From NCBI GenBank assembly GCA_902536295.1, contig CACAWS010000004.1, positions 6,568-70,567 of the forward strand: a stretch of DNA of 64,000 nt, read 5' to 3'. Below the pieces are notes generated by a model. It was not told the DNA's origin. It searched no databases and saw nothing but the letters and a program-made list of their open reading frames with translations. Shown piece after piece: positions 4,426 through 45,887 of this stretch. Position 1 is the first letter of the stretch. Every line of letters begins with the position of its first letter. The position numbers and the translations under genes were made by a program. This DNA comes from an uncultured SAR86 cluster bacterium (GTDB taxonomy: Bacteria; Pseudomonadota; Gammaproteobacteria; Magnimaribacterales; AG-339-G14).

Positions 4426-5417
4426 ATTAACTCCGAAACCGCTTCTTTTTCCTCTAATAATTCTCTAGTGGTAATTTCAAGTTTTTCCTTAGCATAAGAA
4501 TTTATTTCTAGCCCTTGAATTATTTCAATTTTACCTTCCTTGGTAGATCTTAATGGAAATCCATAAATTATACCTTCTGGCACATCATAGCTTCCATCGC
4601 TTAAAATCGCGGCGCTAAAACAGTCACCATTTTTTGTTGGGGTTAAAGTAGCTTTGACCGTCTCTATTGCGGCATTAGCTGCAGAGGCAGCTGAAGAAGC
4701 TCCCCTAGCGTCAATAATAGCTTTTCCTCGTTGCTGAACAGTTTCTAAGAAGTCATTTTTAATCCATCCTTCGTCCTTAATAATAGATGAAACGCTTTCA
4801 TTTTTTACTAATGCATTATCCAAATCAGGATACATAGTTGGGCTGTGATTACCCCATATAATCATTTGATTAATTTCAGAAATTGGAACATTTATTTTAC
4901 TTGAAACTTGAGCTTTTGCTCTATTTGCATCTAAAGCGGTCATGGCCATCCAAGTCTGACTTGCATTATTTGCATGAGTCATGCCAATTAAAGCATTTGT
5001 GTTAGCAGGATTTCCAACTACGAGAATTTTTGCATTATTTTTTCCTTTACTACCAATCGCTTTACCCTGATCAGTGAATATTCCTCCATTAATTTTTAAT
5101 AAGTCGCCGCGCTCTTCAATTTTTTTACCATTGATTGTTATTCCTCTAGGAATGCTTCCCACGAGCAAGGCCCAATCAACTTCTTCAGCCGCTTTGTAAA
5201 TATCAGAAAATGCTTCGACTTTTCCAAGAGTATTGAAGCCACAATCTTCTAATTCCATAATTGTTCCATTGAGCTTTTCTACAACTTCAGGAATCTCAAC
5301 CAAACGTAAATTTACAATAACATTGGAACCAAATGTTTCGCCACTTGCAAGTCTAGGCAGAAGAGCATAACCAATCTGACCAGCTGCACCCGTAACTAAT
5401 ACATTAATTTCTTTCAT
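4422..5417 (-). CDS. mdh: malate dehydrogenase, NAD-dependent (long, Thermus/cytosolic-type)
   Basis: 331 aa with VLVTGAAGQIGYALL (Rossmann fold), GNPANTNA and IWGNHS motifs. Confidence 0.88.
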   Translation of the reverse strand: MKEINVLVTGAAGQIGYALLPRLASGETFGSNVIVNLRLVEIPEVVEKLNGTIMELEDCGFNTLGKVEAFSDIYKAAEEVDWALLVGSIPRGITINGKKIEERGDLLKINGGIFTDQGKAIGSKGKNNAKILVVGNPANTNALIGMTHANNASQTWMAMTALDANRAKAQVSSKINVPISEINQMIIWGNHSPTMYPDLDNALVKNESVSSIIKDEGWIKNDFLETVQQRGKAIIDARGASSAASAANAAIETVKATLTPTKNGDCFSAAILSDGSYDVPEGIIYGFPLRSTKEGKIEIIQGLEINSYAKEKLEITTRELLEEKEAVSELI

Positions 5418-25653: not shown

Positions 25654-26315
25654 AGGGCAAATTAGCTGTGTTAGAAGAGAATTTGAAATATTCTTTCAAA
25701 GACAAAAATTTATTAATTAAAGCTCTTACTCATATAAGCAGTTCTCAAGAAAATAATGAAGTCCTAGAGTTTTTAGGAGATTCAGTTATAAATTTAATCA
25801 TTAGTGAGCTTTTAATCGAGAAGTTTCCCAGTAAAAATGAAGGGTTTTTAAGTTTAATGCGTTCGAAATTAGTTAGTAGAGAGATGCTAAATAAAATAGC
25901 CAAAGATTTGCAATTAAAGGATTATATAATCTTAGGAGAGTCATTTAAAAACCAAAAAATTACTGAGGATTTATTAGGAAATGCACTAGAAGCAATTCTT
26001 GGGTCAATTTTTTTAGAAAAAGGATTAATTCCCGTAAGAAAAGTAATTAAAATTTTTTTTAAAAAAGAAATTGTGTCGCTTTCGGAATCAGACTTAAAAA
26101 ATAGTAAAACCATTTTGCAAGAATACTGTCAAAAAAATAACTTAAATTTACCGAGTTATTGTGAAATTAAAAAAGATGAAAGAATAAATTCTTTTGTTGT
26201 GATTTGTCTTATAAATGAAGATCTACAAAGTTTAGGTTATGGGAAAAATTTAAAATATGCTGAACTAGATGCAGCTAAAAAAGTTATGAAAAAAATAAAA
26301 ATCATAAATGGATAG
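25650..26315 (+). CDS. rnc: ribonuclease III
   Basis: The LEFLGDSVINL signature and a C-terminal dsRBD are present. I prefer the ATG at 25650 ([12 protein letters not shown]), which overlaps the lepB TGA as ATGA. The listed start at 25590 lies inside lepB. Confidence 0.9.
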   Translation: MKGKLAVLEENLKYSFKDKNLLIKALTHISSSQENNEVLEFLGDSVINLIISELLIEKFPSKNEGFLSLMRSKLVSREMLNKIAKDLQLKDYIILGESFKNQKITEDLLGNALEAILGSIFLEKGLIPVRKVIKIFFKKEIVSLSESDLKNSKTILQEYCQKNNLNLPSYCEIKKDERINSFVVICLINEDLQSLGYGKNLKYAELDAAKKVMKKIKIING

Positions 26316-27192
26316 AAAATTTGGTTTTGTATCTTTGACTGGAAGAACCAATGTGGGAAAGTCCACTCTTCTTAATTCTCTTTTTCAAAAAAAAATTTCG
26401 ATAACTTCAAGGAAACCACAAACCACAAGAAACAGAATTTTAGGTATTTTGTCAAAAGGAAATAATCAAATTGTTTTCCTTGATTCTCCGGGGGTTCACG
26501 TTGGATATAAAAGAGCTCTTAACAAGTACATGAATAAAACAGCCAGAGCCTGTTACGAGGAAGTAGATTTAGTGGTGTTTGTAGTAGACAGGGGAAAATG
26601 GCAAAAAGAGGAAGATAGCATTTTAAAAAATCTTAAAGAATTAAATAAACCTATATTATTAGCAATCAATAAAATTGATAGAGTAAAAAATAATAATAAT
26701 ATTTTACCAATCATTAATGAATTAAATTCAAAATATCCTTTTGAAGCAATCATTCCTGTTTCAGCGCTAAAAAAAGTGAAAGTAGATTTATTGCTTTCGA
26801 AAATAATTGAAACTATTCCCGCTGGAGAATTTCATTATCCTATAGAAAATGAAAAAGAGTTTTCTAAGTCTTTTTTCATATCGGAAATAATAAGAGAGAA
26901 AGCAATCAACAGGCTTGGCGATGAATTGCCCTATAGGATTAATGTACAAATAGAGAAAATTGATGAAGGAAAATCTATCCAACATATTCACTCAAACATA
27001 CATGTCGAGTCTTCAAGTCAGAAAGCTATCTTATTAGGAAAGAATGGCGCAATGATAAAATCGATTGGTATGTCTTCAAGGAAAGAGTTAGAAAAAGAAT
27101 TAAAATCAAAGGTGAATTTGCAGTTAAGAATAAAAGTTAAAAAAAATTGGACTAATGATATTAATTTATTGTCTAAATATGGATACGATTGA
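26308..27192 (+). CDS. era: GTPase Era
   Basis: 294 aa with GRTNVGKSTLLN (G1), DSPG and NKID, plus a C-terminal KH domain. Confidence 0.93.
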   Translation: MDRKFGFVSLTGRTNVGKSTLLNSLFQKKISITSRKPQTTRNRILGILSKGNNQIVFLDSPGVHVGYKRALNKYMNKTARACYEEVDLVVFVVDRGKWQKEEDSILKNLKELNKPILLAINKIDRVKNNNNILPIINELNSKYPFEAIIPVSALKKVKVDLLLSKIIETIPAGEFHYPIENEKEFSKSFFISEIIREKAINRLGDELPYRINVQIEKIDEGKSIQHIHSNIHVESSSQKAILLGKNGAMIKSIGMSSRKELEKELKSKVNLQLRIKVKKNWTNDINLLSKYGYD

Positions 27193-27195
27193 CTA

Positions 27196-27224
27196 TTGAA
27201 ATTTTTGGTGGTTTGTACTAATAT
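27196..27224 (+). promoter_or_regulatory. sigma-70-like promoter TTGAAA-17 nt-TAATAT
   Basis: Hexamers are read at 27196-27201 and 27219-27224. The predicted start lies just upstream of the CGTTCA that opens the leader structure. Confidence 0.45.
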
Positions 27225-27235
27225 TGCACAGTAAT

Positions 27236-27368
27236 CGTTCATCTTTTGCACTATTTAAATGCAAAAGACGGAAGTAGGAAGATAGGAAAACCTCTTTCTT
27301 CCCTAGGGAGGAAAGGTTAGCAAGTACCCAATGCGGGAACGAGACCGAATATCTAACGAAGGAACGCG
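27236..27368 (+). promoter_or_regulatory. candidate glutamine riboswitch (glnA RNA / Downstream-peptide class) with an expanded distal stem
   Basis: Elements occur in this order. CGTTCA lies at 27236-27241. A perfect 8-bp hairpin follows (CTTTTGCA 27243-27250 / TGCAAAAG 27260-27267). ACGGAAGTAGG lies at 27268-27278. A ~78-nt insert comes next, closed by AGATA (27280-27284) / TATCT (27350-27354), with an inner hairpin at 27287-27316. CGAAGGAACGCG lies at 27357-27368. CGTTC pairs with GAACG (27362-27366) to close a three-way junction. AGUA opposite GAA would form the E-loop. Confidence 0.6.
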
Positions 27369-27430
27369 TTGAGAAGGGTGTACGTCGGGAGATGTATGTA
27401 CGAAATCGATACGAAAACTGGAGGCACGAT

Positions 27431-27592
27431 ATGGCTACTTACTATAGAGGCGTTAAAGTAAACTCTGATAAATCTAATTCTGATGCTCAAGAAGCTAAGG
27501 GTGGAATATACAGAGGTATTAAACACGACGCATTACGAAATAAGTCAGTTAAAAAACCTGGGATTTATCGCGGGACTAGAACAACTGCATGA
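27431..27592 (+). CDS. small basic protein with three YRG repeats (53 aa; possibly DUF4278-like)
   Basis: MATYYRGVKVNSDKSNSDAQEAKGGIYRGIKHDALRNKSVKKPGIYRGTRTTA. A GGAGG SD lies 7 nt upstream of the ATG at 27431. The listed longer ORF start (27392) has no SD. Confidence 0.6.
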   Translation: MATYYRGVKVNSDKSNSDAQEAKGGIYRGIKHDALRNKSVKKPGIYRGTRTTA

Positions 27593-27614
27593 CTTTGTTT
27601 TAAGTTAAAAATTA

Positions 27615-27643
27615 GGGAGGCTTAACAGCCTCCCTTTTTTTTT
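27615..27643 (+). terminator. rho-independent terminator
   Basis: GGGAGGCT-TAAC-AGCCTCCC, a perfect 8-bp GC-rich stem, is followed by nine T residues. Confidence 0.85.
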
Positions 27644-27663
27644 GATAAATTAGATAAAAAAAA

Positions 27664-28380
27664 TTGAAAAATTCAAGGTTTTCAGCCAAAGCTGTACTTT
27701 TACATTCATCAAATTATAGAGAAACTAGTTTAATAGGTACTTTTTTTACAGATAAATATGGTCTTGTTAAATTAGTTGTAAGAGCAGCTAAGACAAAAAA
27801 AAGTAAATTTTCAAGCATAAAAGCTCCAGGAGCTGTCTTTGATATTGAATTCGGAGGAAAAGGAGAGTTAAAAAATCTTTATGCTGCTGAAATTGTTGAC
27901 TCCATAATTATTGATGAAACTAATTTAAAAATTCATCTTTATCTACATGAAATAATAATTAGAACTTTAGAATTAGAGGCCCCTGTTCAAGCAATATTTG
28001 AAAGTTTATTAAATTTGATGAAAGAAATAGAAAAGATCGGTGATTCTACCCAGAAGGAATTTAAACTAAGGCAATTTGAATTTCAGTTGTTATCAGAATT
28101 GGGATACGAATTTAGTCTTTCACATGATTGCAATGGAAAATTGATAGAAGAAGAGTCTTTTTATGAGTTCATTCCTAGTCAAGGATTAAAAGAAACAAGT
28201 AAAATAGATCAAAATTATGTATCTCAAGGTAGTTCAATTTTAAGATTCAAGGAAGGTGCTTTCGAAAATGAACAGTCAAAAAAATTTATTAAATATATAA
28301 TGAGATCTTCGTTAGATACAATATCGACAAAACCCTTAAACTCTTCAAAATTTTTTAGATTAAATAAAGATGCGAATTAA
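27664..28380 (+). CDS. recO: DNA repair protein RecO
   Basis: 238 aa with a TTG start. The N-terminal OB-fold pattern (AVLLHSSNYRETSLIGTFFTDKYGLVKLVVR) and its position after era match the rnc-era-recO operon. Confidence 0.75.
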   Translation: MKNSRFSAKAVLLHSSNYRETSLIGTFFTDKYGLVKLVVRAAKTKKSKFSSIKAPGAVFDIEFGGKGELKNLYAAEIVDSIIIDETNLKIHLYLHEIIIRTLELEAPVQAIFESLLNLMKEIEKIGDSTQKEFKLRQFEFQLLSELGYEFSLSHDCNGKLIEEESFYEFIPSQGLKETSKIDQNYVSQGSSILRFKEGAFENEQSKKFIKYIMRSSLDTISTKPLNSSKFFRLNKDAN

Positions 28381-28756
28381 AAATGGAATCGACTTGATAG
28401 AAATAAGCAGGATTAAAAAATCCTATGACACTTTTGGAGATAGATTGCTTAATAGAATTTATGATGAATCTGAAATTAATGTTTTTTTAAAAAAAAGTTT
28501 AGTGGCTAAAGCTCCATTTCTTGCTAAGAACTTTGCCGCAAAGGAAGCAGTATCAAAAGTTTTAGGCACTGGTTTTACAAATGGAATAAGGCCAAAAGAT
28601 ATTGTTATCAAACGAAGGTATGGTGGGCCTGAGGTAGAATTAAGAGGCAAATCAGCAGAATTTGCTAAAAAAATTGGTTTGATATACATCAGTCTCAGTA
28701 TGTCCGATACCAATTATAATGCTACTGCAGTTGCAACCGGAATTTTTGAATCGTGA
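28370..28756 (+). CDS. acpS: holo-[acyl-carrier-protein] synthase
   Basis: 128 aa with [10 protein letters not shown] and [14 protein letters not shown] motifs. Confidence 0.88.
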
Positions 28757-39805: not shown

Positions 39806-39880
39806 GTCCCCTTCGTCTAGCGGTTAGGACACCGGGTTTTCATCTCGGCAACAGGGGTTCGATCCCCCTAGGGGACGCCA
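39806..39880 (+). tRNA. tRNA-Glu (anticodon UUC), CCA encoded
   Basis: GTCCCCT acceptor, GTCT-AGCGGTTA-GGAC D-arm, CCGGG-TTTTCAT-CTCGG anticodon arm, AGGGG-TTCGATC-CCCCT T-arm and AGGGGAC-G-CCA. Confidence 0.92.
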
Positions 39881-40048
39881 AAAAATTACGCTCTTTTTAA
39901 GTGCATTTCATAAATATTTAGAGCAAAAATGTTCGATTTCCTTACGTTTTAAGCCCTTTTAGTTTTTTTAGTTGAAAATTGCTGCCTTTTTCAAAGATTT
40001 AAAATAAGACAGTAAATTGTTTGAATGCTGTGCATTTATCAAATGTTT

Positions 40049-40399
40049 ATGAAACTTATGTCAATTGTTGTAAAACCATCTAAAGTCGAAGCTGTTAAAA
40101 GCGCTATTTCATCCGTGGGTGTAAGTGGTGCAACTATCTTAGATGCTAGAGGGTTTGGTTCAACAAAGGGGCACACAGACTCTTATAGGGGAGCTCAATA
40201 TCAAGTGGATACAAATCCTAAAGCTATGTTGCAGGTCGCATGTAAGGACGAGAGTGTGAATGACATTATAGAAGCGGTTCGTAGTGTGGCTAATACCAAC
40301 ACTATTGGGGATGGAAAAATTTTCATCACAGAACTTTTAGATGTAATACGTATCAGAACTGGTGAATCCGGTGAAGGTGCAATTAACGGAGAATATTAA
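40049..40399 (+). CDS. glnK: nitrogen regulatory protein P-II
   Basis: MKLMSIVVKPSKVEAV... is followed by the T-loop GFGSTKGHTDSYRGAQY with the conserved Tyr. It is directly followed by amtB. I prefer the start at 40049; the listed ORF starts at 40025. Confidence 0.85.
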   Translation: MKLMSIVVKPSKVEAVKSAISSVGVSGATILDARGFGSTKGHTDSYRGAQYQVDTNPKAMLQVACKDESVNDIIEAVRSVANTNTIGDGKIFITELLDVIRIRTGESGEGAINGEY

Positions 40400-41637
40400 T
40401 GGAAGAAATTAAATTTTCATTAGACACATTCTATGCTCTCATGTCGGGAGCTTTAGTTATGTGGATGGCTGCCGGTTTCACAATGTTGGAAGCTGGTTTA
40501 GTTCAGAAGAAGGATGTCTCTGAGATCGTTACAAAGAATTTAGGATTGTATTCAATCGCATGTGTCATGTATTTGGCTTGTGGATTTATTCTTATGTACC
40601 CTGGCTCAGCATTAATTGACGGAATTCTTCCGGGAATAGGAACTTCTTGGTGGTTATCTACCGCTGATCCTATCGAGGAAATCGGTATACCTTACGGTAT
40701 GGATTATTCACAACAAGCTGATTTCTTTTTCCAAGTAGTTTTTGTTGCAACAGCTATGTCGATTGTTTCGGGAGCGGTTGCAGGTAGAATGAAACTATTA
40801 CCTTTCTACTTATTTGCTGTAATTCTTACTGCATTCATTTATCCAATCCAAGGTTACTGGAACTGGGGTGGTGGTTTCTTAAGTTCTGGTGGTTATTCTG
40901 ACTACGCTGGTTCAGGAACAGTACACTTGTGTGGTGCTGCCGCTGCTCTAGCTGTAGTTACAGTTTTAGGTCCTAGGAAAGGAAAATATAATGCTGACGG
41001 TTCAGTTAATCCTATGCCTGGATCAAATATTCCATTAGCCGCTCTAGGTGCATGGATACTTTGGTTGGGTTGGTTTGGATTTAATGGCGGTTCAGAGCTT
41101 GTAGTTAGTTCTGAAGCTAGTGCAATTGCTGTTAGTCAGGTGTTCTTAAACACTAATATGGCTGCCGCAGGTGGAGTAATTGCTGCATTATTAACAAGCT
41201 TATTTGCAACAGGAAAAATGGATGTCACCATGGCGATAAATGGTGCAATTGCAGGTCTAGTTGCAATCACGGCTGGGCCCAGCGCTCCAACTGGTGGTGA
41301 AGCTGTATTTATTGGTGCCGCTGGTGGTGTATTGGTTTACTTCTCAATTCTTTTCTTTGATAAGACAATGAAAGTAGACGATCCTGTTGGCGCAATTTCA
41401 GCTCACGGGACTGTAGGTATCTTAGGTGTAATGGTTGTTCCATTTACATCAGACGCTTCTTTCCTATGGCAATTATATGGCGTACTAGCTATCGGTGGAT
41501 TCACTTACATAGCAAGTTTAATAGTTACATTTATTATAAATGTAATTATGCCAATCAGAGCAACTGATGAAGAGCAAGACGCTGGTCTAGACTCAACAGA
41601 AGTTGGGGTATCAGCTTACCCAGAATTCTCAGATTAA
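40399..41637 (+). CDS. amtB: ammonium transporter
   Basis: 412 aa, Amt/Rh family, with DYAGSGTVHLCGAAAALA and AISAHGTVGILG motifs. Confidence 0.93.
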   Translation: MEEIKFSLDTFYALMSGALVMWMAAGFTMLEAGLVQKKDVSEIVTKNLGLYSIACVMYLACGFILMYPGSALIDGILPGIGTSWWLSTADPIEEIGIPYGMDYSQQADFFFQVVFVATAMSIVSGAVAGRMKLLPFYLFAVILTAFIYPIQGYWNWGGGFLSSGGYSDYAGSGTVHLCGAAAALAVVTVLGPRKGKYNADGSVNPMPGSNIPLAALGAWILWLGWFGFNGGSELVVSSEASAIAVSQVFLNTNMAAAGGVIAALLTSLFATGKMDVTMAINGAIAGLVAITAGPSAPTGGEAVFIGAAGGVLVYFSILFFDKTMKVDDPVGAISAHGTVGILGVMVVPFTSDASFLWQLYGVLAIGGFTYIASLIVTFIINVIMPIRATDEEQDAGLDSTEVGVSAYPEFSD

Positions 41638-41650
41638 TTTCTCCCTAATA

Positions 41651-41690
41651 AAAAGCAGGCAAGCCTCCCTTGCCTGCTTTTTTCTTTTTT
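41651..41690 (+). terminator. rho-independent terminator after amtB
   Basis: GCAGGCAAG-CCTCC-CTTGCCTGC (9-bp stem) is followed by TTTTTTCTTTTTT. Confidence 0.85.
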
Positions 41691-41725
41691 GTTTATAACT
41701 AAAGTTAAAAGTTAAAATCTATCTG

Positions 41726-43732
41726 ATGAGATATGTATTTGCGTTACTATTTTTTTTATTCCCTATTAACCTGCTTTCAGAAATAGAAGAGACACTAATA
41801 GTGACGGAATCAAATTGGTTTTTTTTACCTTCTATTGACGAAATAAAGCAAGAGGAGATCGAGTTTTATAATCCTCATCATTTTAAGGAATTATTAAATC
41901 TATCCTCTGGAGTTTGGATTAGTCGAGGTTCCGGTCAAGAAAGTTTAATCTCTTTAAGATCACCTGTCCTGACTGGAGCAGGAGCTTGCGGATCTTTTCA
42001 GATTTTAGAGGACGGCATTCCAATCAGGCCTGCGGGCTTTTGTAATGTTAATAATCTTTTTGAGGTTGCTGGAAATTTGGCCTCTGAAATTGAAGTGGTT
42101 AAAGGCCCTTCGAGTTCAATGTTTGGTGGGAACGCTTTGCACGGAGTTATAAATGTTAAATCTATAAATACAGTAGGGAATAGTAATTTAAATTTTCAAG
42201 TAGACAAAAATGATTCAATAAGAAGTAAATTTATCTACAAAAGAATAAAAAATACTGCAGTTGGATTTGACTTCGCAAAAGATAAGGGATTCAGGAATCG
42301 GTCTGGATTTGATCAGCAAAAATTTGTCATAAAAAACTCTAAAGATATTGAAGATTGGTCATTACAAACATTAATTAGTTTTACTAACTTGAACCAGGAG
42401 ACAGCAGGTTATATTAATTCATATTTATATCCTACAAGAATAGATAATATTAATCCTGAGGCATATAGAGATGCCAAATCCTTAAGAATAAAGACAGAAA
42501 TTTCAAAAACTCTTGAAAAATATAATGTTCATTTCATACCTTACTTAAGATTTAGTTCTATGGAATTTATCCAGCATTATTTGCCTGGAAAACCTATCGA
42601 AAAAAATGGCCAGAAAAGTACAGGTCTTAAGTTCAAGTTATCAGAATTAGAAATAAATGATAACTTGTTTGAAATAGGTAGTCAGATCGAAATAGCCTTC
42701 GTTAACCTAGATCAGTTTCAACCTGATACATTGAATTCTCCAAATGCTTTTAACAATGCAGTTAGGCCACAGGGCTACCACTATGACTTTGAGGTAGTAA
42801 CAAGTTTTCTTGCTGGTTTTATATCTCATGAATATGAATTTAAGAATAAATACAATTTTTTTTCGAATTTACGTCTCGAATATCTTAATTACAATTATGA
42901 CAATTTAATGTCTGACGGTCGTTTAAAAGACGATGGAACTTCATGCGCTAGAGGCGGTTGTTTTTACTCTAGACCAGCAGATTCTGAATTAAGTTTTATG
43001 GATTATTCTTATAGATTAGGACTCTCAAAGTTTACTAACATTGGCAAGGTTTTCATTCAATTTAGTAAGGGGCATCGGCCTCCACAGATTAATGAATTAT
43101 TTAGGCTTCAAAAATCTCAGGTTCTTGCAGATTTAGATTCAGAAAAAATAGACTCAATTGAAATAGCTTTGGAAAACAATGGAAATGATTTTTTTAATAA
43201 ATTAGTTTTTTATTATTCAAAAAAGAAAAATTATATATTCAAAGATTCTGACTCTAATATGGTGCTAGGTGGCAAGTCAAGGCACAAAGGAATTGAATTA
43301 AAAGGGGCAAAAATTTTAAATAATTATTTTTCAATCAAATACGCTCTTAATTTAGCAGGACACTACTATGATTTTATCAATCAAGACATAGGAGTGGTAT
43401 CGGGAAATGAAATAGATACTAGCCCAAACATTTTTGGCAGTATTTTTATAAATTTTAATGCTTTCAACAAATTAAATTTTGAGTTAGAGCAAGAATTTAT
43501 GGATCAATACTTTACCGAGCCCTCGAATACTTACGTTTATAAAGGTCACAACCTAACTAATCTGAGAAGTTCTTATGAATTAAGTGATGATATAAATTTA
43601 AATCTGAGTATTTTGAATCTTTTTGATAAAGAGTATGCTGAGAGGGCAGACTACTCCTCATTTACTGGAGAAAGATTTTTTCCAGGAATTCCTTTAAAGT
43701 GGCGTTTAGGAATTAATTACAAATTCAATTAA
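41726..43732 (+). CDS. TonB-dependent outer-membrane receptor (substrate unknown)
   Basis: 668 aa with a signal peptide, a TonB-box-like ETLIVTE, a plug domain, a beta-barrel and a C-terminal aromatic residue (..INYKFN). Confidence 0.85.
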   Translation: MRYVFALLFFLFPINLLSEIEETLIVTESNWFFLPSIDEIKQEEIEFYNPHHFKELLNLSSGVWISRGSGQESLISLRSPVLTGAGACGSFQILEDGIPIRPAGFCNVNNLFEVAGNLASEIEVVKGPSSSMFGGNALHGVINVKSINTVGNSNLNFQVDKNDSIRSKFIYKRIKNTAVGFDFAKDKGFRNRSGFDQQKFVIKNSKDIEDWSLQTLISFTNLNQETAGYINSYLYPTRIDNINPEAYRDAKSLRIKTEISKTLEKYNVHFIPYLRFSSMEFIQHYLPGKPIEKNGQKSTGLKFKLSELEINDNLFEIGSQIEIAFVNLDQFQPDTLNSPNAFNNAVRPQGYHYDFEVVTSFLAGFISHEYEFKNKYNFFSNLRLEYLNYNYDNLMSDGRLKDDGTSCARGGCFYSRPADSELSFMDYSYRLGLSKFTNIGKVFIQFSKGHRPPQINELFRLQKSQVLADLDSEKIDSIEIALENNGNDFFNKLVFYYSKKKNYIFKDSDSNMVLGGKSRHKGIELKGAKILNNYFSIKYALNLAGHYYDFINQDIGVVSGNEIDTSPNIFGSIFINFNAFNKLNFELEQEFMDQYFTEPSNTYVYKGHNLTNLRSSYELSDDINLNLSILNLFDKEYAERADYSSFTGERFFPGIPLKWRLGINYKFN

Positions 43733-43740
43733 AATTTCAA

Positions 43741-45111
43741 GTGAGTCATTCTAAAATCTCTGAAGAATTGCCTAGTAATATTGAAAGCGTTTCTAGTCCA
43801 GAAACTTTATCAATATGGGGATTAGCATGGCCTTCGATTTTAGCCAATATTTTATTTGCTGCAGCAGGAGTGGTTTCGATTAAAGCTGTTGGTGTGCTTG
43901 GAACTGAAGCAGTCGCAGCCGTAGGAACAGGTCAAAGAATTTTATTTGTAATTCAATCAATAATCATGGCGGTTTCTACTGGAACTGCAGCGCTGGTAGC
44001 CAGAGCTTTTGGCTCTAGTAATTATCAAGAATCGTCACAGGTGCTATTAGACTCGCTATGGATTGGTTCCGCACTAAGTATGGTTGCCACCTTATCGATG
44101 TGGTTTTATGGAGAATCAATTATTTCCTTGTTCGGTTTAGATCCTGAGTCTAAAAAATTGGCTGTTATCTACATTAAGTACACTATGTTATTTTCAATAA
44201 CTTTTTCTTGCTCATTTATTTTCAGCTCTGCTTTAAGAGCTGCCGGCGATGCCAAAACTCCCTTAGCAATTATGATTTTCCAAAATCTCTTAAATATATA
44301 TTTACTAATTGGATTAGTTAATGGGCAATTTGGATTTCCAAAATTGGGAGTTCTGGGAGCCTCATATGCTTGGGGTATATCATTTACAGTCGGCACGATC
44401 ATCTATCTGATTCTTTGGCTTTCAAAAATAACAATTATTCCTGTTCCCGATATAAGAGGAATAATTTATAAAAGAGTTAGGTCAATAATAAGAATTGCGA
44501 CACCTGCCACCTTAGAGTCTGGTGTTTTTCAATCAGGGTTGCTATTTTACTTTTGGATTATTTCCTTGTATGGAACTGAGCCAAGCGCAGCGTATAACAT
44601 TGGAATAAATATTCTAATGCTCTCTTTTATGATTGGTCAGGGATTTTCTATCGCTGGGGCAACACTTACAGGGCAATTTTTAGGAGCTAATAACCCAAAA
44701 GAAGCAAAAAGAAGTGGTTGGAGATCTGCAGGATTGTCGATTATTTCTATGGGCGTTGTGGGGCTTTTAATTGCAATGTTTTCTAATGAAATATCAAGAT
44801 TTCTTGTTGACGATGATGAAGTTGTGAGACTAACAGTCATATTTGTATGGTTTCTAGGATCCATGCAACCTTTGATGGCAATAGAGTTTGCGATAGGGGG
44901 TGCTTTGAGAGGAGCTGGAGACACGACATCACCGTTAGTAATAACTTTAATAGGTTTAATATTCTTTAGATTGTCTATCGCTTTGTCATTTTTATTATTT
45001 GATTTACCTGTTGAATACATTTTTGCAAGTTTAATGATTGATTATCTTGTTAAAGCTATTTTATTCGCCTATTGGTTTAATTCTGGTAAATGGATAAAAA
45101 TTAATATTTAG
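43741..45111 (+). CDS. MATE family efflux transporter
   Basis: 456 aa, 12 TM segments, GTG start. The pattern is typical of the MatE repeat. Confidence 0.8.
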   Translation: MSHSKISEELPSNIESVSSPETLSIWGLAWPSILANILFAAAGVVSIKAVGVLGTEAVAAVGTGQRILFVIQSIIMAVSTGTAALVARAFGSSNYQESSQVLLDSLWIGSALSMVATLSMWFYGESIISLFGLDPESKKLAVIYIKYTMLFSITFSCSFIFSSALRAAGDAKTPLAIMIFQNLLNIYLLIGLVNGQFGFPKLGVLGASYAWGISFTVGTIIYLILWLSKITIIPVPDIRGIIYKRVRSIIRIATPATLESGVFQSGLLFYFWIISLYGTEPSAAYNIGINILMLSFMIGQGFSIAGATLTGQFLGANNPKEAKRSGWRSAGLSIISMGVVGLLIAMFSNEISRFLVDDDEVVRLTVIFVWFLGSMQPLMAIEFAIGGALRGAGDTTSPLVITLIGLIFFRLSIALSFLLFDLPVEYIFASLMIDYLVKAILFAYWFNSGKWIKINI

Positions 45112-45185
45112 TTATTTATTTATATTTTTTATCTTTTTTAATGTATTATTTACGTAATTATTAATAATTATCTGGGAGAGATATT

Positions 45186-45887
45186 ATGGAATATGTTCTA
45201 GCTACCAATGATTATGTTGGTATTTCTTTTTGGCTAGCCACAGCTATAATGCTTGCTTCTACTGTATTTTTCTTCATTGAAAGATCTGACGTCAAAGGTA
45301 AGTGGAAAACTTCTTTGACTGTTGCGGGTTTAGTTACTGGTATAGCTTTTTGGCATTATTTGTACATGAGAGACGTATGGGTAATGGTTGGTGACACACC
45401 TACTGTTTACCGATACATTGATTGGTTAATCACTGTTCCTCTTCAAATAATTGAATTTTATTTAGTTATTGCTGCTGTTACAGCAATTAGCGCTGTCATT
45501 TTCTGGAAGCTTCTAACCGCTTCAATTGTGATGTTGGTTTTTGGATATCTTGGAGAAACTGGATTAATGGATGTAACCCTTGGTTGGGTGATTGGAATGA
45601 TCGCTTGGCTGTACATCATTTATGAAATCTTCTTTGGTGAAACAGCTGCTGCTAATGCTGGCAGTGGAAACGCAGCCAGTCAACAAGCATTTACAACAAT
45701 TAAATGGATTGTGACTGTAGGTTGGGCAATATACCCATTGGGATATGCAATTGGATATTTCGGTGGCGGAGTAGATGCTAATTCGTTGAATATAATCTAC
45801 AACTTGGCTGACTTAATTAACAAAACAGCGTTTGGTTTAGCTATCTGGGCTGCTGCTAAAGCAGATTCAGAAACTTCCTACGCTTAA
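45186..45887 (+). CDS. proteorhodopsin (light-driven proton pump), blue-absorbing type (Gln105)
   Basis: 233 aa, 7 TM segments. In standard proteorhodopsin numbering: H75 (FWHYLYMR), R94/D97 (YRYIDW), Q105 and E108 (VPLQIIEF), D227/K231 (NLADLINKTAFG). A GGGAGAG SD lies upstream. Confidence 0.93.
   Translation: MEYVLATNDYVGISFWLATAIMLASTVFFFIERSDVKGKWKTSLTVAGLVTGIAFWHYLYMRDVWVMVGDTPTVYRYIDWLITVPLQIIEFYLVIAAVTAISAVIFWKLLTASIVMLVFGYLGETGLMDVTLGWVIGMIAWLYIIYEIFFGETAAANAGSGNAASQQAFTTIKWIVTVGWAIYPLGYAIGYFGGGVDANSLNIIYNLADLINKTAFGLAIWAAAKADSETSYA

What the first reader, a model, noticed from the sequence alone, without database searches (positions are those of the whole stretch)
27193..27643. Glutamine-riboswitch-like leader driving a 53-aa YRG-repeat protein, inserted into the conserved rnc-era-recO operon of a non-cyanobacterial genome
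This is a self-contained 450-bp unit between era and recO, which are normally adjacent.
(a) The promoter is TTGAAA-17-TAATAT.
(b) The leader is noticeably more GC-rich than other spacers. It reads CGTTCA, a perfect 8-bp hairpin, ACGGAAGTAGG, a ~78-nt stem-closed insert, then CGAAGGAACGCG. CGTTC pairs with GAACG to close a three-way junction, and AGUA faces GAA as in an E-loop. As I remember them, these three strings, in this order and with these hairpin positions, are the conserved core of the glutamine-binding glnA RNA / Downstream-peptide motifs.
(c) The ORF is SD-preceded, 53 aa, lysine/arginine-rich and carries three (I/Y)YRG(V/I/T)(K/R) repeats. It is reminiscent of the YRG-motif DUF4278 peptides.
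(d) A strong terminator follows.
These riboswitches are described from cyanobacteria, cyanophages and marine metagenomic DNA presumed to be cyanobacterial. In cyanobacteria one of them controls the glutamine synthetase inactivating factor IF17.
Here the host is a proteorhodopsin heterotroph by synteny. This suggests an undescribed glutamine-sensing circuit in which a small basic protein, perhaps a functional analogue of GS-inactivating factors or another modulator of nitrogen assimilation, is made in response to intracellular glutamine.
The enlarged distal stem contains a second GAACG (27337-27341) that could compete for CGTTC. That would give a built-in alternative pairing not present in the compact cyanobacterial version.
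Basis: partly seen in the sequence, partly recalled or inferred. Interest (0 to 1): 0.85.

Follow-up and report, generated by a model that had tools for sequence, protein, structure and literature searches.

The report
Extended glutamine riboswitch before small protein
A marine SAR86 bacterium carries, between two housekeeping genes, a glutamine-sensing RNA switch with an unusually large, conserved extra domain that controls a 53-residue basic protein, and the same module is widespread in ocean gammaproteobacteria and their phages rather than being confined to cyanobacteria.

Summary
Window 27234-27370 matches the Rfam glutamine riboswitch RF01739 above its curated threshold (42.8 vs 35 bits). 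It has its own promoter and terminator. It is followed by GGAGG and a 53-aa ORF (27431-27592) with three YRG motifs that belongs to the DUF4278 family.

The host is a SAR86 gammaproteobacterium. The unit sits between era and recO in more than 20 independent assemblies and one single-cell genome, so it is not a chimera.

Three findings are new.
- The 78-nt "insert" in stem P3 is a conserved three-way-junction domain with strong covariation and invariant junction strands.
- A helix (P5) that uses the base right after P1 covaries. The published glutamine-induced linchpin pair would exclude it, which fits a translational ON switch.
- The whole module occurs in at least 182 loci: SAR86 (also next to amtB-glnK), another gammaproteobacterial lineage (next to icd-korAB), and many phages related to those of streamlined heterotrophs.

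The peptide matches only the N-terminal part of IF17, which is dispensable for glutamine synthetase inhibition, so the "GS-inactivator analogue" idea is untested. The competing-GAACG idea is not conserved.

Verdict: new variant of a known kind, moderately high interest.

The parts
27196..27224 (+). sigma-70-type promoter TTGAAA-17-TAATAT; the -10 element ends 9 nt before the aptamer
   Evidence: Consensus scan. -35/-10 pairs at the same spacing in the era-recO and amtB-type relatives.
27234..27370 (+). Type-1 glutamine riboswitch aptamer (RF01739) with an expanded P3
   Evidence: Rfam 42.8 bits vs gathering score 35. Own covariance model R1 scores 156 bits.
27236..27240 (+). P1 5' strand CGUUC; pairs with GAACG 27362-27366 and forms the ligand-binding groove
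   Evidence: Invariant in 88 of 88 distinct sequences. C1:G59 contacts glutamine in the solved structure (PMC6698751).
27242..27268 (+). P2 hairpin (8 bp, 27242-27249 with 27261-27268)
   Evidence: All 8 pairs show changes on both sides. 30 distinct hairpins; own stems average 6.6 bp vs 2.8 in the cross-lineage control.
27268..27278 (+). Conserved junction/E-loop strand ACGGAAGUAGG; G27270 and G27271 are the equivalents of G22 and G23
   Evidence: Identical to the Rfam consensus. Roles of G22 and G23 from PMC11477058.
27279..27356 (+). 78-nt P3 domain: closing stem (27280-27284 with 27350-27354, and G27285-G27286 with C27345-C27346, with a 3-nt bulge), then a three-way junction with invariant joining strands GAAAACC (27286-27292), AGCAAGUA (27319-27326) and GAACGAGA (27337-27344)
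   Evidence: Closing stem covaries at 5 of 7 pairs. In an unbiased viral scan 32 of 33 long inserts carry the same blocks.
27293..27316 (+). Insert hairpin H1 (10 bp, loop CUAG); its 5' base overlaps the invariant CCUC
   Evidence: 8 of 10 pairs covary and 97.3% of cells are paired. 36 distinct versions.
27327..27336 (+). Insert hairpin H2 (2-4 bp); often closed by a GNRA loop in relatives
   Evidence: Both pairs covary (CG/GC/UA/AU) and 100% of cells are paired.
27357..27366 (+). CGAAGGAACG: E-loop strand plus P1 3' strand
   Evidence: Rfam alignment.
27367..27413 (+). Expression platform: helix P5 (C27367-G27413, G27368-C27412, U27369-A27411) enclosing the conserved GAGAAGGGUGU and hairpin H3 (27381-27386 with 27391-27396, loop GGGA)
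   Evidence: P5 variants are CGUU/AACG, CAUAGG/CCUAUG, CUA/UAG and CAU/AUG. H3 has 18-22 sequences with both sides changed at each pair. The spacer is 98-100% identical where flanking genes are 82-84%.
27420..27424 (+). Shine-Dalgarno GGAGG, 6 nt before the ATG, within the conserved GAAAACUGGAGGCA
   Evidence: Present in all 69 leaders, but these were retained only if GGAGG was followed by an ATG.
27431..27592 (+). 53-aa basic protein with three YRG motifs (DUF4278 family)
   Evidence: YRG blocks invariant, linkers variable, indels in-frame.
27614..27643 (+). Intrinsic terminator (9-bp stem plus T-run)
   Evidence: 96-99% conserved in relatives.

Best explanation
This is a self-contained transcription unit in a SAR86 gammaproteobacterium. 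Its 5' leader is a genuine type-1 (glnA-class) glutamine riboswitch, and it most likely acts as a translational ON switch for a 53-aa DUF4278 protein.

Proposed mechanism:
1. At low glutamine, helix P5 (C27367-G27413 plus 2-3 more pairs) stacks on P1. Together with hairpin H3 it holds the region just upstream of the Shine-Dalgarno in a compact fold.
2. At high glutamine, the ligand binds in the P1 groove. G27271 (the equivalent of G23) inserts to pair with C27367 (the equivalent of C60).
3. That pair removes the first, invariant base pair of P5. P5 melts, the ribosome-binding region is released, and the peptide is made.

The 78-nt P3 insert is a conserved three-way-junction domain specific to this peptide-linked subclass. 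In the solved aptamer P3 changes orientation on ligand binding, so the domain probably couples that movement to the platform or tunes ligand response. Its exact role is unknown.

The peptide is a small, basic signal of nitrogen sufficiency whose target is unknown. Gene neighbourhoods in relatives (amtB-glnK; icd-korAB) point to nitrogen/2-oxoglutarate metabolism.

Shown here: aptamer identity, structure and covariation, coding conservation, distribution. Inferred: glutamine binding, the ON direction, the role of P5. Speculative: the role of the insert and the target of the peptide.
For: Aptamer identity:
- RF01739 hit above the gathering score in the window, and directly upstream of the homologous peptide gene in every bacterial and phage lineage sampled except L041-43 and the error-rich L030.

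Selection on the leader:
- The leader is more conserved than its protein-coding neighbours: aptamer about 96% and spacer 98-100%, against era, recO and adk at 82-84%.

Structure:
- Structure-aware alignment of 95 sequences: 95.2% of cells form standard pairs (shuffles 77.7%, slid partners <= 49%).
- 444 double-change cells against 111.6 expected (0 of 500 shuffles reach this).
- Covariation score 0.381 against 0.117.
- An alignment-free anchor analysis gives the same picture.

Platform:
- P5 covaries across lineages and H3 covaries.
- C27367 is the equivalent of C60, whose linchpin pair with G23 forms on glutamine binding and melts a short helix attached to P1 (PMC6212724; PMC11477058).
- The cyanobacterial type-1 switch is an experimentally shown ON switch for a DUF4278 gene (PMC6212724).

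Peptide:
- Coding-type conservation and DUF4278 membership of 66 of 69 homologues.

Context and host:
- Nitrogen and carbon-balance neighbours: amtB-glnK and icd-korAB.
- Host identity and non-chimerism.
Against: - No binding or expression data exist for this variant.
- P5 does not itself cover the Shine-Dalgarno. It ends 6 nt upstream, so how melting P5 would open the ribosome-binding site is not established.
- Thermodynamic modelling does not consistently predict SD sequestration. The SD-CCUC pairing exceeds 50% in only 18 of 91 leaders, and the whole-leader z-score is only -1.85.
- One lineage (L037) has the same platform with a short P3, so the insert is not indispensable.
- The covariation alignment was fitted to the model structure.
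- Many loci were ascertained with patterns that fix the core blocks. The unbiased scan covers viral contigs only.
- The window's own peptide is 1.1 bits under the Pfam cut-off.
Confidence: 0.72

Rival explanations
1. The P3 insert is a second, independent binding site nested in the glutamine aptamer. It could bind another metabolite, giving a two-input switch, or it could bind the basic YRG peptide itself, giving autoregulation as in ribosomal-protein leaders. This adds to the riboswitch reading rather than excluding it.
For: - About 25 invariant nucleotides lie in the three junction strands, while the stems vary freely. That pattern is typical of a binding pocket or a tertiary core.
- The insert is tightly associated with YRG-peptide genes: 30 of 33 long-insert aptamers, against 19 of 160 short ones.
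- The peptide is very basic, with three repeated beta-hairpin YRG units.
Against: - No match to any other Rfam family.
- L037 and some phage copies drive YRG peptides with a short P3.
- Invariant junctions can equally reflect tertiary packing.
- No experimental data.
Confidence: 0.2
2. The aptamer works in the opposite direction (OFF switch), or acts on transcription or mRNA stability rather than on translation initiation.
For: - The Shine-Dalgarno is not visibly sequestered by a conserved, covarying helix.
- The platform differs from that of gifB.
Against: - No terminator-like structure lies between the aptamer and the ORF.
- Both tested glutamine riboswitch classes are ON switches for DUF4278 genes (PMC6212724).
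- P5 uses the linchpin C, as the ON model expects.
Confidence: 0.1
3. The unit is a phage-derived cassette fixed in SAR86 by horizontal transfer, with no regulatory role for the host. It would be a relic or a selfish "moron".
For: - The same module is abundant on phage contigs.
- It occupies different chromosomal sites in different SAR86 lineages.
- A recombination boundary lies at the unit.
- Its GC is well above that of the host.
Against: - The leader is under stronger purifying selection than the neighbouring essential genes across diverged SAR86 genomes.
- The reading frame, promoter and terminator are intact in all copies.
- Placement next to amtB-glnK in sister lineages argues for a host function.
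- The elevated GC is shared by phage copies, and structural RNA constraints explain it.
Confidence: 0.05
4. The ORF is not translated, and the RNA acts as a non-coding or trans-acting RNA.
For: - The ORF is very short.
- Related cyanobacterial transcripts (Yfr6) were first taken for non-coding RNAs (PMC6212724).
Against: - GGAGG at optimal spacing.
- YRG blocks invariant with variable linkers, and indels only in multiples of three, across 113 homologues.
- The Pfam family matches.
Confidence: 0.03

Closest known systems
Type-1 glutamine riboswitch (glnA RNA, Rfam RF01739) of cyanobacteria, e.g. the gifB leader of Synechocystis PCC 6803 and the crystallised Synechococcus aptamer (PDB 5DDP)
   Same: - Identical P1, E-loop and junction sequences.
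- P2 hairpin.
- Ligand-contacting positions present.
- C immediately 3' of P1 present.
- Lies in the 5' UTR of a DUF4278 gene.
- A short helix next to P1 links it to the ribosome-binding region.
   Different: - P3 is a conserved three-way-junction domain of about 60-80 nt instead of a hairpin of about 8-14 nt.
- The platform is a covarying P5 helix enclosing hairpin H3 and conserved single strands, not a direct anti-RBS stretch.
- Hosts are SAR86 and other Gammaproteobacteria and phages related to those of streamlined heterotrophs.
- The downstream protein lacks the IF7-like GS-binding part.
IF17 (GifB) and the IF17-like DUF4278 peptides of Prochlorococcus and Synechococcus (e.g. PMM1846/Yfr6), controlled by glutamine-II (Downstream-peptide) riboswitches
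   Same: - Small, basic DUF4278-only proteins.
- Made under control of a glutamine aptamer.
- Found in streamlined oligotrophic marine cells.
- Function unresolved.
   Different: - Here the aptamer is class I, not class II.
- The host is a proteobacterium, a group whose GS is classically regulated by adenylylation. I did not check this in the SAR86 genome.
- The peptide has three regularly spaced YRG hairpin units.
Glutamine riboswitches reported in Methylophilales phage Melnitz and Pelagibacter phage Mosig (PMC9004378)
   Same: Glutamine aptamers on myophages of streamlined marine heterotrophs. The major capsid protein of the module-bearing T4-like contigs is 61-67% identical to those phages.
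   Different: - Those were reported next to a tmRNA gene, with no YRG peptide.
- Neither the module nor the peptide has a BLAST match in 50,697 deposited phage genomes.

Membership tests
Glutamine riboswitch type 1 (glnA RNA, RF01739) | Covariance-model score at or above Rfam's gathering threshold | tested here: met
   42.8 bits against 35, full-length model match 1-53. Relatives score 37-49.9 bits.
Glutamine riboswitch type 1 (glnA RNA, RF01739) | P1 helix CGUUC/GAACG closing a three-way junction | tested here: met
   27236-27240 with 27362-27366. Invariant in 88 of 88 distinct sequences, so there is no covariation to assess.
Glutamine riboswitch type 1 (glnA RNA, RF01739) | P2 hairpin supported by covariation | tested here: met
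   All 8 pairs have changes on both sides; 96.6% of cells are paired.
Glutamine riboswitch type 1 (glnA RNA, RF01739) | E-loop and junction strands (ACGGAAGUAG / CGAAGG) and ligand-contact positions (C1:G59, G2:C58, G22, G23, C60) | tested here: met
   Sequence identical to the consensus. Equivalents are C27236:G27366, G27237:C27365, G27270, G27271 and C27367 (positions from PMC6698751 and PMC11477058). This is a sequence-level test only.
Glutamine riboswitch type 1 (glnA RNA, RF01739) | Short P3 hairpin | tested here: not met
   P3 carries 78 nt forming a three-way junction. The model bridges it only with a local-end jump. In the solved structure P3 projects away from the binding site, so this is a variant, not a disqualification.
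Glutamine riboswitch type 1 (glnA RNA, RF01739) | Selective binding of L-glutamine | not testable with these tools
   Needs in-line probing, ITC or SHAPE.
Glutamine-II riboswitch (Downstream-peptide, RF01704) | Covariance-model match / pseudoknot architecture | tested here: not met
   No RF01704 hit in 27100-27700 even at E <= 10.
DUF4278 (Pfam PF14105) | HMM score at or above Pfam's gathering threshold | tested here: inconclusive
   The window peptide scores 24.2 bits against 25.3, E = 4.5e-5, covering profile positions 1-54 of 57. 66 of 69 homologues match at E <= 0.01, best 1.8e-8, and many database relatives carry a precomputed PF14105 hit. Membership holds at family level; the individual score is marginal.
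GS-inactivating factor IF17 (GifB) | C-terminal IF7-homologous region with the Arg/Lys residues that bind glutamine synthetase | tested here: not met
   The protein is 53 aa and ends 5 residues after the DUF4278 match. DUF4278 is the N-terminal moiety of IF17, dispensable for inhibition (PMC6316151).
GS-inactivating factor IF17 (GifB) | Inhibits the cognate glutamine synthetase | not testable with these tools
   Needs a biochemical assay.

The most novel reading that the evidence does not exclude
The conserved 60-80-nt three-way junction nested in P3 is a second sensor. It would bind either another metabolite or the YRG peptide itself, and its docking state is read out through the glutamine-driven swing of P3. 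The leader would then be a two-input, or autoregulated, riboswitch that marine Gammaproteobacteria and their phages share and exchange.
Probability: 0.2. Interest if true: 0.85.

Novelty: new variant of a known kind. Interest (0 to 1): 0.62.

Why it matters
- Glutamine riboswitches and DUF4278 peptides are treated in the literature as a cyanobacterial speciality tied to IF-type inhibition of glutamine synthetase. The affiliation of the many "marine metagenome" examples was explicitly left open (PMC6212724).
- This work assigns a large, structurally distinct subclass to SAR86 (one of the most abundant heterotrophs of the surface ocean), to another gammaproteobacterial lineage, and to phages whose capsid genes resemble those of SAR11 and OM43 phages.
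- It defines new conserved RNA elements (the P3 domain, P5, H3) that can be tested directly.
- It shows that the DUF4278-only peptide is kept under glutamine control in organisms with no reported IF-type GS inhibition. That sharpens the open question of what these peptides do. Their neighbours (amtB-glnK, icd-korAB) suggest where to look.
- Phage carriage suggests that phages read or manipulate host nitrogen status.

Tried and rejected
- **Chimera with cyanobacterial DNA:** rejected. The same junctions occur in more than 20 independent assemblies and a SAR86 single-cell genome.
- **Downstream-peptide (glutamine-II) membership:** rejected. No hit.
- **The second GAACG in the insert as a conserved competitor for CGUUC:** rejected as a general feature. 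It reads GAACAG or GAAAG in other lineages.
- **SD sequestration by the invariant CCUC of the insert:** tested by partition-function folding of 91 leaders. Support is weak and inconsistent, so it is kept only as a hypothesis.
- **Spacer conserved because it codes for an N-terminal extension from ATG 27392:** rejected.
  - That ATG lies in the 3' arm of the covarying hairpin H3 and has no correctly spaced SD.
  - The podophage-type spacer is unrelated and contains stop codons.
- **RNAalifold on the MAFFT alignment:** recovered only fragments because of indels in the hairpins. I replaced it with an anchor-based analysis and a covariance-model alignment.
- **Searches of deposited phage genomes for the module or the peptide:** nothing found.
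- **PDB sequence search:** nothing found.
- **Fold search on the AlphaFold model:** not run, because the model's pTM of 0.22 is too weak to justify it.
- **Genome-collection scan with Era:** returned only one close relative, so presence or absence across SAR86 species could not be surveyed.
- **Ames & Breaker 2011:** could not be read. I cannot exclude that a long P3 variant was drawn there.
Full report

Yes.

- Promoter: TTGAAA-17-TAATAT at 27196-27224.
- Leader: CGTTC (27236-27240), a perfect 8-bp hairpin (27242-27249 with 27261-27268), ACGGAAGTAGG (27268-27278), 78 further bases, then CGAAGG and GAACG (27357-27366).
- Coding region: GGAGG (27420-27424), 6 nt, then a 53-codon ORF (27431-27592).
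- Terminator: a 9-bp GC-rich stem followed by a run of T (27614-27643).

The Rfam model of the type-1 glutamine riboswitch (RF01739) matches 27234-27370 over its full length. The score is 42.8 bits against a curated threshold of 35, with E = 5.3e-6 for the whole window. The model has to jump over 79 bases at the tip of the third stem. The related Downstream-peptide (glutamine-II) model does not match at all. The unit has 42-44% G+C in a 23-33% background.

**2. Whose DNA is it, and is it a chimera?**

- The flanking genes are lepA-lepB-rnc-era and recO-acpS-adk-tsaB-uppP.
- Era is 88% identical to that of the SAR86 single-cell genome AG-907-D15. That genome carries the same unit in the same place.
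- The window also has glnK-amtB (40025-41637) and a rhodopsin gene (45186-45887).
- The unit sits between era and recO in 18 further contigs from independent marine assemblies.
- In distant gammaproteobacteria era and recO lie about 10-140 nt apart, against 471 nt here.

It is therefore a real, fixed feature of a SAR86 lineage and not an assembly artefact.

**3. Selection on the unit.**

Between the window and relatives whose era, recO and adk are 82-84% identical in DNA:

| Segment | Identity |
|---|---|
| Aptamer | 96% |
| 61-nt spacer | 98-100% |
| Terminator | 96% |
| ORF | 87-88% |

The ORF changes in the manner of a coding sequence. The three YRG blocks are invariant, the linkers vary, and the one indel is a whole codon.

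**4. The peptide.**

- A profile search finds 113 proteins of about 52-55 aa.
- 66 of 69 that were scanned match Pfam DUF4278 individually. The window's own copy is 1.1 bits below the cut-off.
- NCBI already names one homologue [quoted passage not shown].
- AlphaFold gives three beta-hairpins, one per YRG motif, at modest confidence (pLDDT 70, pTM 0.22).
- There is no solved relative.

According to the literature, DUF4278 is the N-terminal moiety of IF17. It stabilises the protein and is dispensable for inhibiting glutamine synthetase. The inhibitory part is the C-terminal IF7-like region (PMC6316151), which this 53-aa protein lacks. The same uncertainty applies to the IF17-like peptides of Prochlorococcus (PMC6212724).

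**5. Where else the module occurs.**

Peptide homologues on long contigs fall into several contexts.

- The same era-recO site in a more distant relative (L029).
- Between a TonB-dependent receptor and amtB-glnK in other SAR86 lineages (L030-33, L037). The AmtB there is named "SAR86 cluster bacterium".
- Between the major capsid and tail-tube genes of T4-like myophages (L034-36).
- Next to terminase and portal genes of podophage-like contigs (L038-40).

Rfam finds RF01739 directly upstream of the peptide gene in all of these. In all but one it carries a 67-79-nt insertion at the same position.

Pattern scans then gave 30 viral and 76 metagenome contigs, some of them GOS reads. In all 63 distinct aptamers, GGAGG, an ATG and a three-YRG peptide follow 56-64 nt later.

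Of 182 module-bearing loci:

| Context | Approximate number |
|---|---|
| era/recO type | 29 |
| amtB/glnK type | 19 |
| T4-like phage | 45 |
| Podophage-like | 45 |
| Unclassified | 44 |

One further bacterial lineage has GC of about 0.5. Its MAGs are named Gammaproteobacteria TMED34 or Pseudomonadales, and a related contig is 3.5 Mb long. There the module lies between an isocitrate-dehydrogenase gene and the two subunits of a 2-oxoacid:ferredoxin oxidoreductase.

The capsid protein of the T4-like contigs is closest to Methylophilales phage Melnitz (67%) and to Pelagibacter phages HTVC008M and Mosig (61-65%). Cyanophages reach no more than 59%. No deposited phage genome has the module or the peptide.

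**6. The "insert" is a conserved structured domain.**

The alignment of 69 distinct leaders shows four things.

- A closing stem: AGAUA/UAUCU, which alternates with UAAAG/CUUUA or AAAC/GUUU in other lineages. It continues with GG/CC across a 3-nt bulge.
- Two hairpins, H1 and H2.
- Three joining strands that hardly vary: GAAAACC, AGCNAGUA and GAAC(A)GAGA.
- An extra U in the second strand always comes with an extra A in the third.

My first pattern fixed GGAAAACCTC, so I repeated the viral scan requiring only the canonical aptamer cores. Of the hits, 52 were tandem short aptamers. Of the 33 distinct true long inserts, 32 contain GAAAACCUC, AGCNAGUA and GAGACC, and 30 precede a peptide with two or three YRG motifs. 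Of 160 distinct short-P3 aptamers, only 19 do so.

An alignment-free test paired hairpin arms from the stem base outward.

| Hairpin | Distinct versions | Result |
|---|---|---|
| P2 | 30 | Own stems average 6.6 bp vs 2.8 for arms from different lineages |
| H1 | 36 | Essentially 100% canonical, e.g. position 3 is UA in 20 and CG in 16 |
| H2 | 27 | CG 23 / GC 4 and CG 22 / UA 3 / GC 2 |

A covariance model built on my structure aligned 95 sequences. On that alignment:

- 95.2% of cells are standard pairs (shuffles 77.7%; partners slid by 1-3 columns 37-49%).
- There are 444 double-change cells against 111.6 in shuffles (0 of 500 reach the observed value).
- The covariation score is 0.381 against 0.117.
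- Covarying pairs: H1 8 of 10, H2 2 of 2, the P3 closing stem 5 of 7, P2 8 of 8. P1 never varies.

Caveat: this alignment is fitted to the structure, and the sequences are related. The anchor-based test and the slid controls argue that the signal is real.

**7. The expression platform.**

- The spacer contains a hairpin H3 (27381-27386 with 27391-27396) with 18-22 double changes per pair.
- The bases immediately 3' of P1 pair with the bases immediately 5' of the conserved AAAACUGGAGG. I call this helix P5. Its variants are:
  - CGUU/AACG in 35 leaders.
  - CGU/ACG in 14, including the window.
  - CAUAGG/CCUAUG in 13.
  - CUA/UAG in 6.
  - CAU/AUG in 9.
- Its first pair, C27367-G27413, is invariant.
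- In the solved aptamer, glutamine binding inserts G23 into the base of P1 to pair with C60, the base after GAACG. It also breaks the A-minor P2-P3 contacts, swings P3, and melts a short helix attached to P1 (PMC11477058; PMC6212724). C27367 is that C60.

P5 and the ligand-bound state are therefore mutually exclusive. This is the arrangement expected for the ON switch demonstrated in cyanobacteria (PMC6212724).

What remains unclear is how the Shine-Dalgarno, which lies 6 nt beyond P5, is masked. The invariant CCUC(Y) of the insert could pair with GGAGG. Ensemble folding predicts this in only 18 of 91 leaders, and the lineage with a short P3 (L037) keeps the same platform.

**8. What the insert may do.**

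- P3 projects away from the binding pocket (PMC6698751), so a large domain is tolerated there.
- P3 is also the arm that moves on binding.
- The domain's invariant junction strands and its near-exclusive link to YRG-peptide genes suggest more than a spacer.
- Possible roles are a lever or docking element that tunes affinity or switching, an anti-SD carrier, or a second binding site for a metabolite or for the peptide.

None of these can be decided from sequence.

**9. Comparison with what is known, and novelty.**

- The aptamer is a member of RF01739 by score and by all sequence-level defining features except the short P3.
- The peptide belongs to DUF4278 but is not an IF17.
- The literature I could search treats both as cyanobacterial. 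Klahn et al. state that glutamine riboswitches occur only in cyanobacteria and/or marine metagenomes of unknown affiliation, and only six papers mention DUF4278.
- There are passing, automated mentions of RF01739 in SAR86 and Pelagibacter MAGs and in phages of OM43 and SAR11.
- I found no description of the P3 domain, of P5 and H3, or of the module's host range. I could not read Ames & Breaker 2011.

I therefore rate it a new variant of a known kind, of moderately high interest.

Noticed in passing
window 26308-28756 compared with L001-L006: Against L001 the window is 82-84% identical upstream of the unit (rnc, era) but 98% identical downstream (recO, acpS, adk). A recent recombination boundary therefore lies at or in the unit.
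   Followed up: partly
window 27590-27625; proteins P0001, P0005-P0008, P0014: In several natural variants the TGA stop is TGG. The peptide then gains 11 residues (WLCFKLKIREA), and translation runs into the terminator stem.
   Followed up: partly
window 27392-27430: An in-frame upstream ATG leads gene callers to 66-75-aa forms (e.g. P0016). It lies in the 3' arm of the covarying hairpin H3 and has no properly spaced SD, so it is probably not used.
   Followed up: yes
window 39806-45887: The window has tRNA-glnK-amtB, then 88 nt, then a 668-aa ORF, MatE and rhodopsin. Sister SAR86 lineages carry the riboswitch-peptide module right after amtB, next to a TonB-dependent receptor. The window has no module there, and its 668-aa ORF does not match that receptor.
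   Followed up: partly
L037 (GCA_002731385.1, PCBU01000010.1) 4900-5204: This MAG is labelled Flavobacteriaceae but shows the SAR86 synteny, so the label is probably wrong. It has a short P3 (AGAUAA-UAAU-UUAUCU) with the same spacer, as if the insert had been deleted or never acquired.
   Followed up: partly
L041-L043, around 4574-5165: A DUF4278 homologue without any RF01739 hit. Its start overlaps the end of a NifU_N gene, on contigs of about 320-340 kb of unknown nature.
   Followed up: no
Viral loci such as L152, L153, L159-L166, L182: Tandem pairs of short glutamine aptamers precede other small ORF families (MTKYQ...YITDNPFYP and MTLWTRYCR...). 124 of 160 short-type aptamers precede non-YRG ORFs.
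   Followed up: no
L034-L036, about 40 nt upstream of the aptamer: In the T4-like contigs the module lies between gp23 and the tail-tube gene. It is preceded by TATAAATA, the T4 late-promoter motif, so the peptide may be a late phage product.
   Followed up: no
Many phage loci (e.g. L038, L054, L061, L150, L158): A NifU_N-like gene recurs within a few kb of the module on both podophage-like and T4-like contigs.
   Followed up: no
L132 305-5443 (also L102): In a gammaproteobacterial lineage with about 50% GC, the module lies between an isocitrate-dehydrogenase gene and korA/korB-like 2-oxoacid:ferredoxin oxidoreductase genes. These enzymes act around 2-oxoglutarate, the carbon skeleton of nitrogen assimilation.
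   Followed up: partly
Alignments A2 and A5, junction strands of the insert: An extra U in AGC-U-AAGUA always co-occurs with an extra A in GAAC-A-GAGACC. This suggests a contact or base pair between the two joining strands.
   Followed up: no
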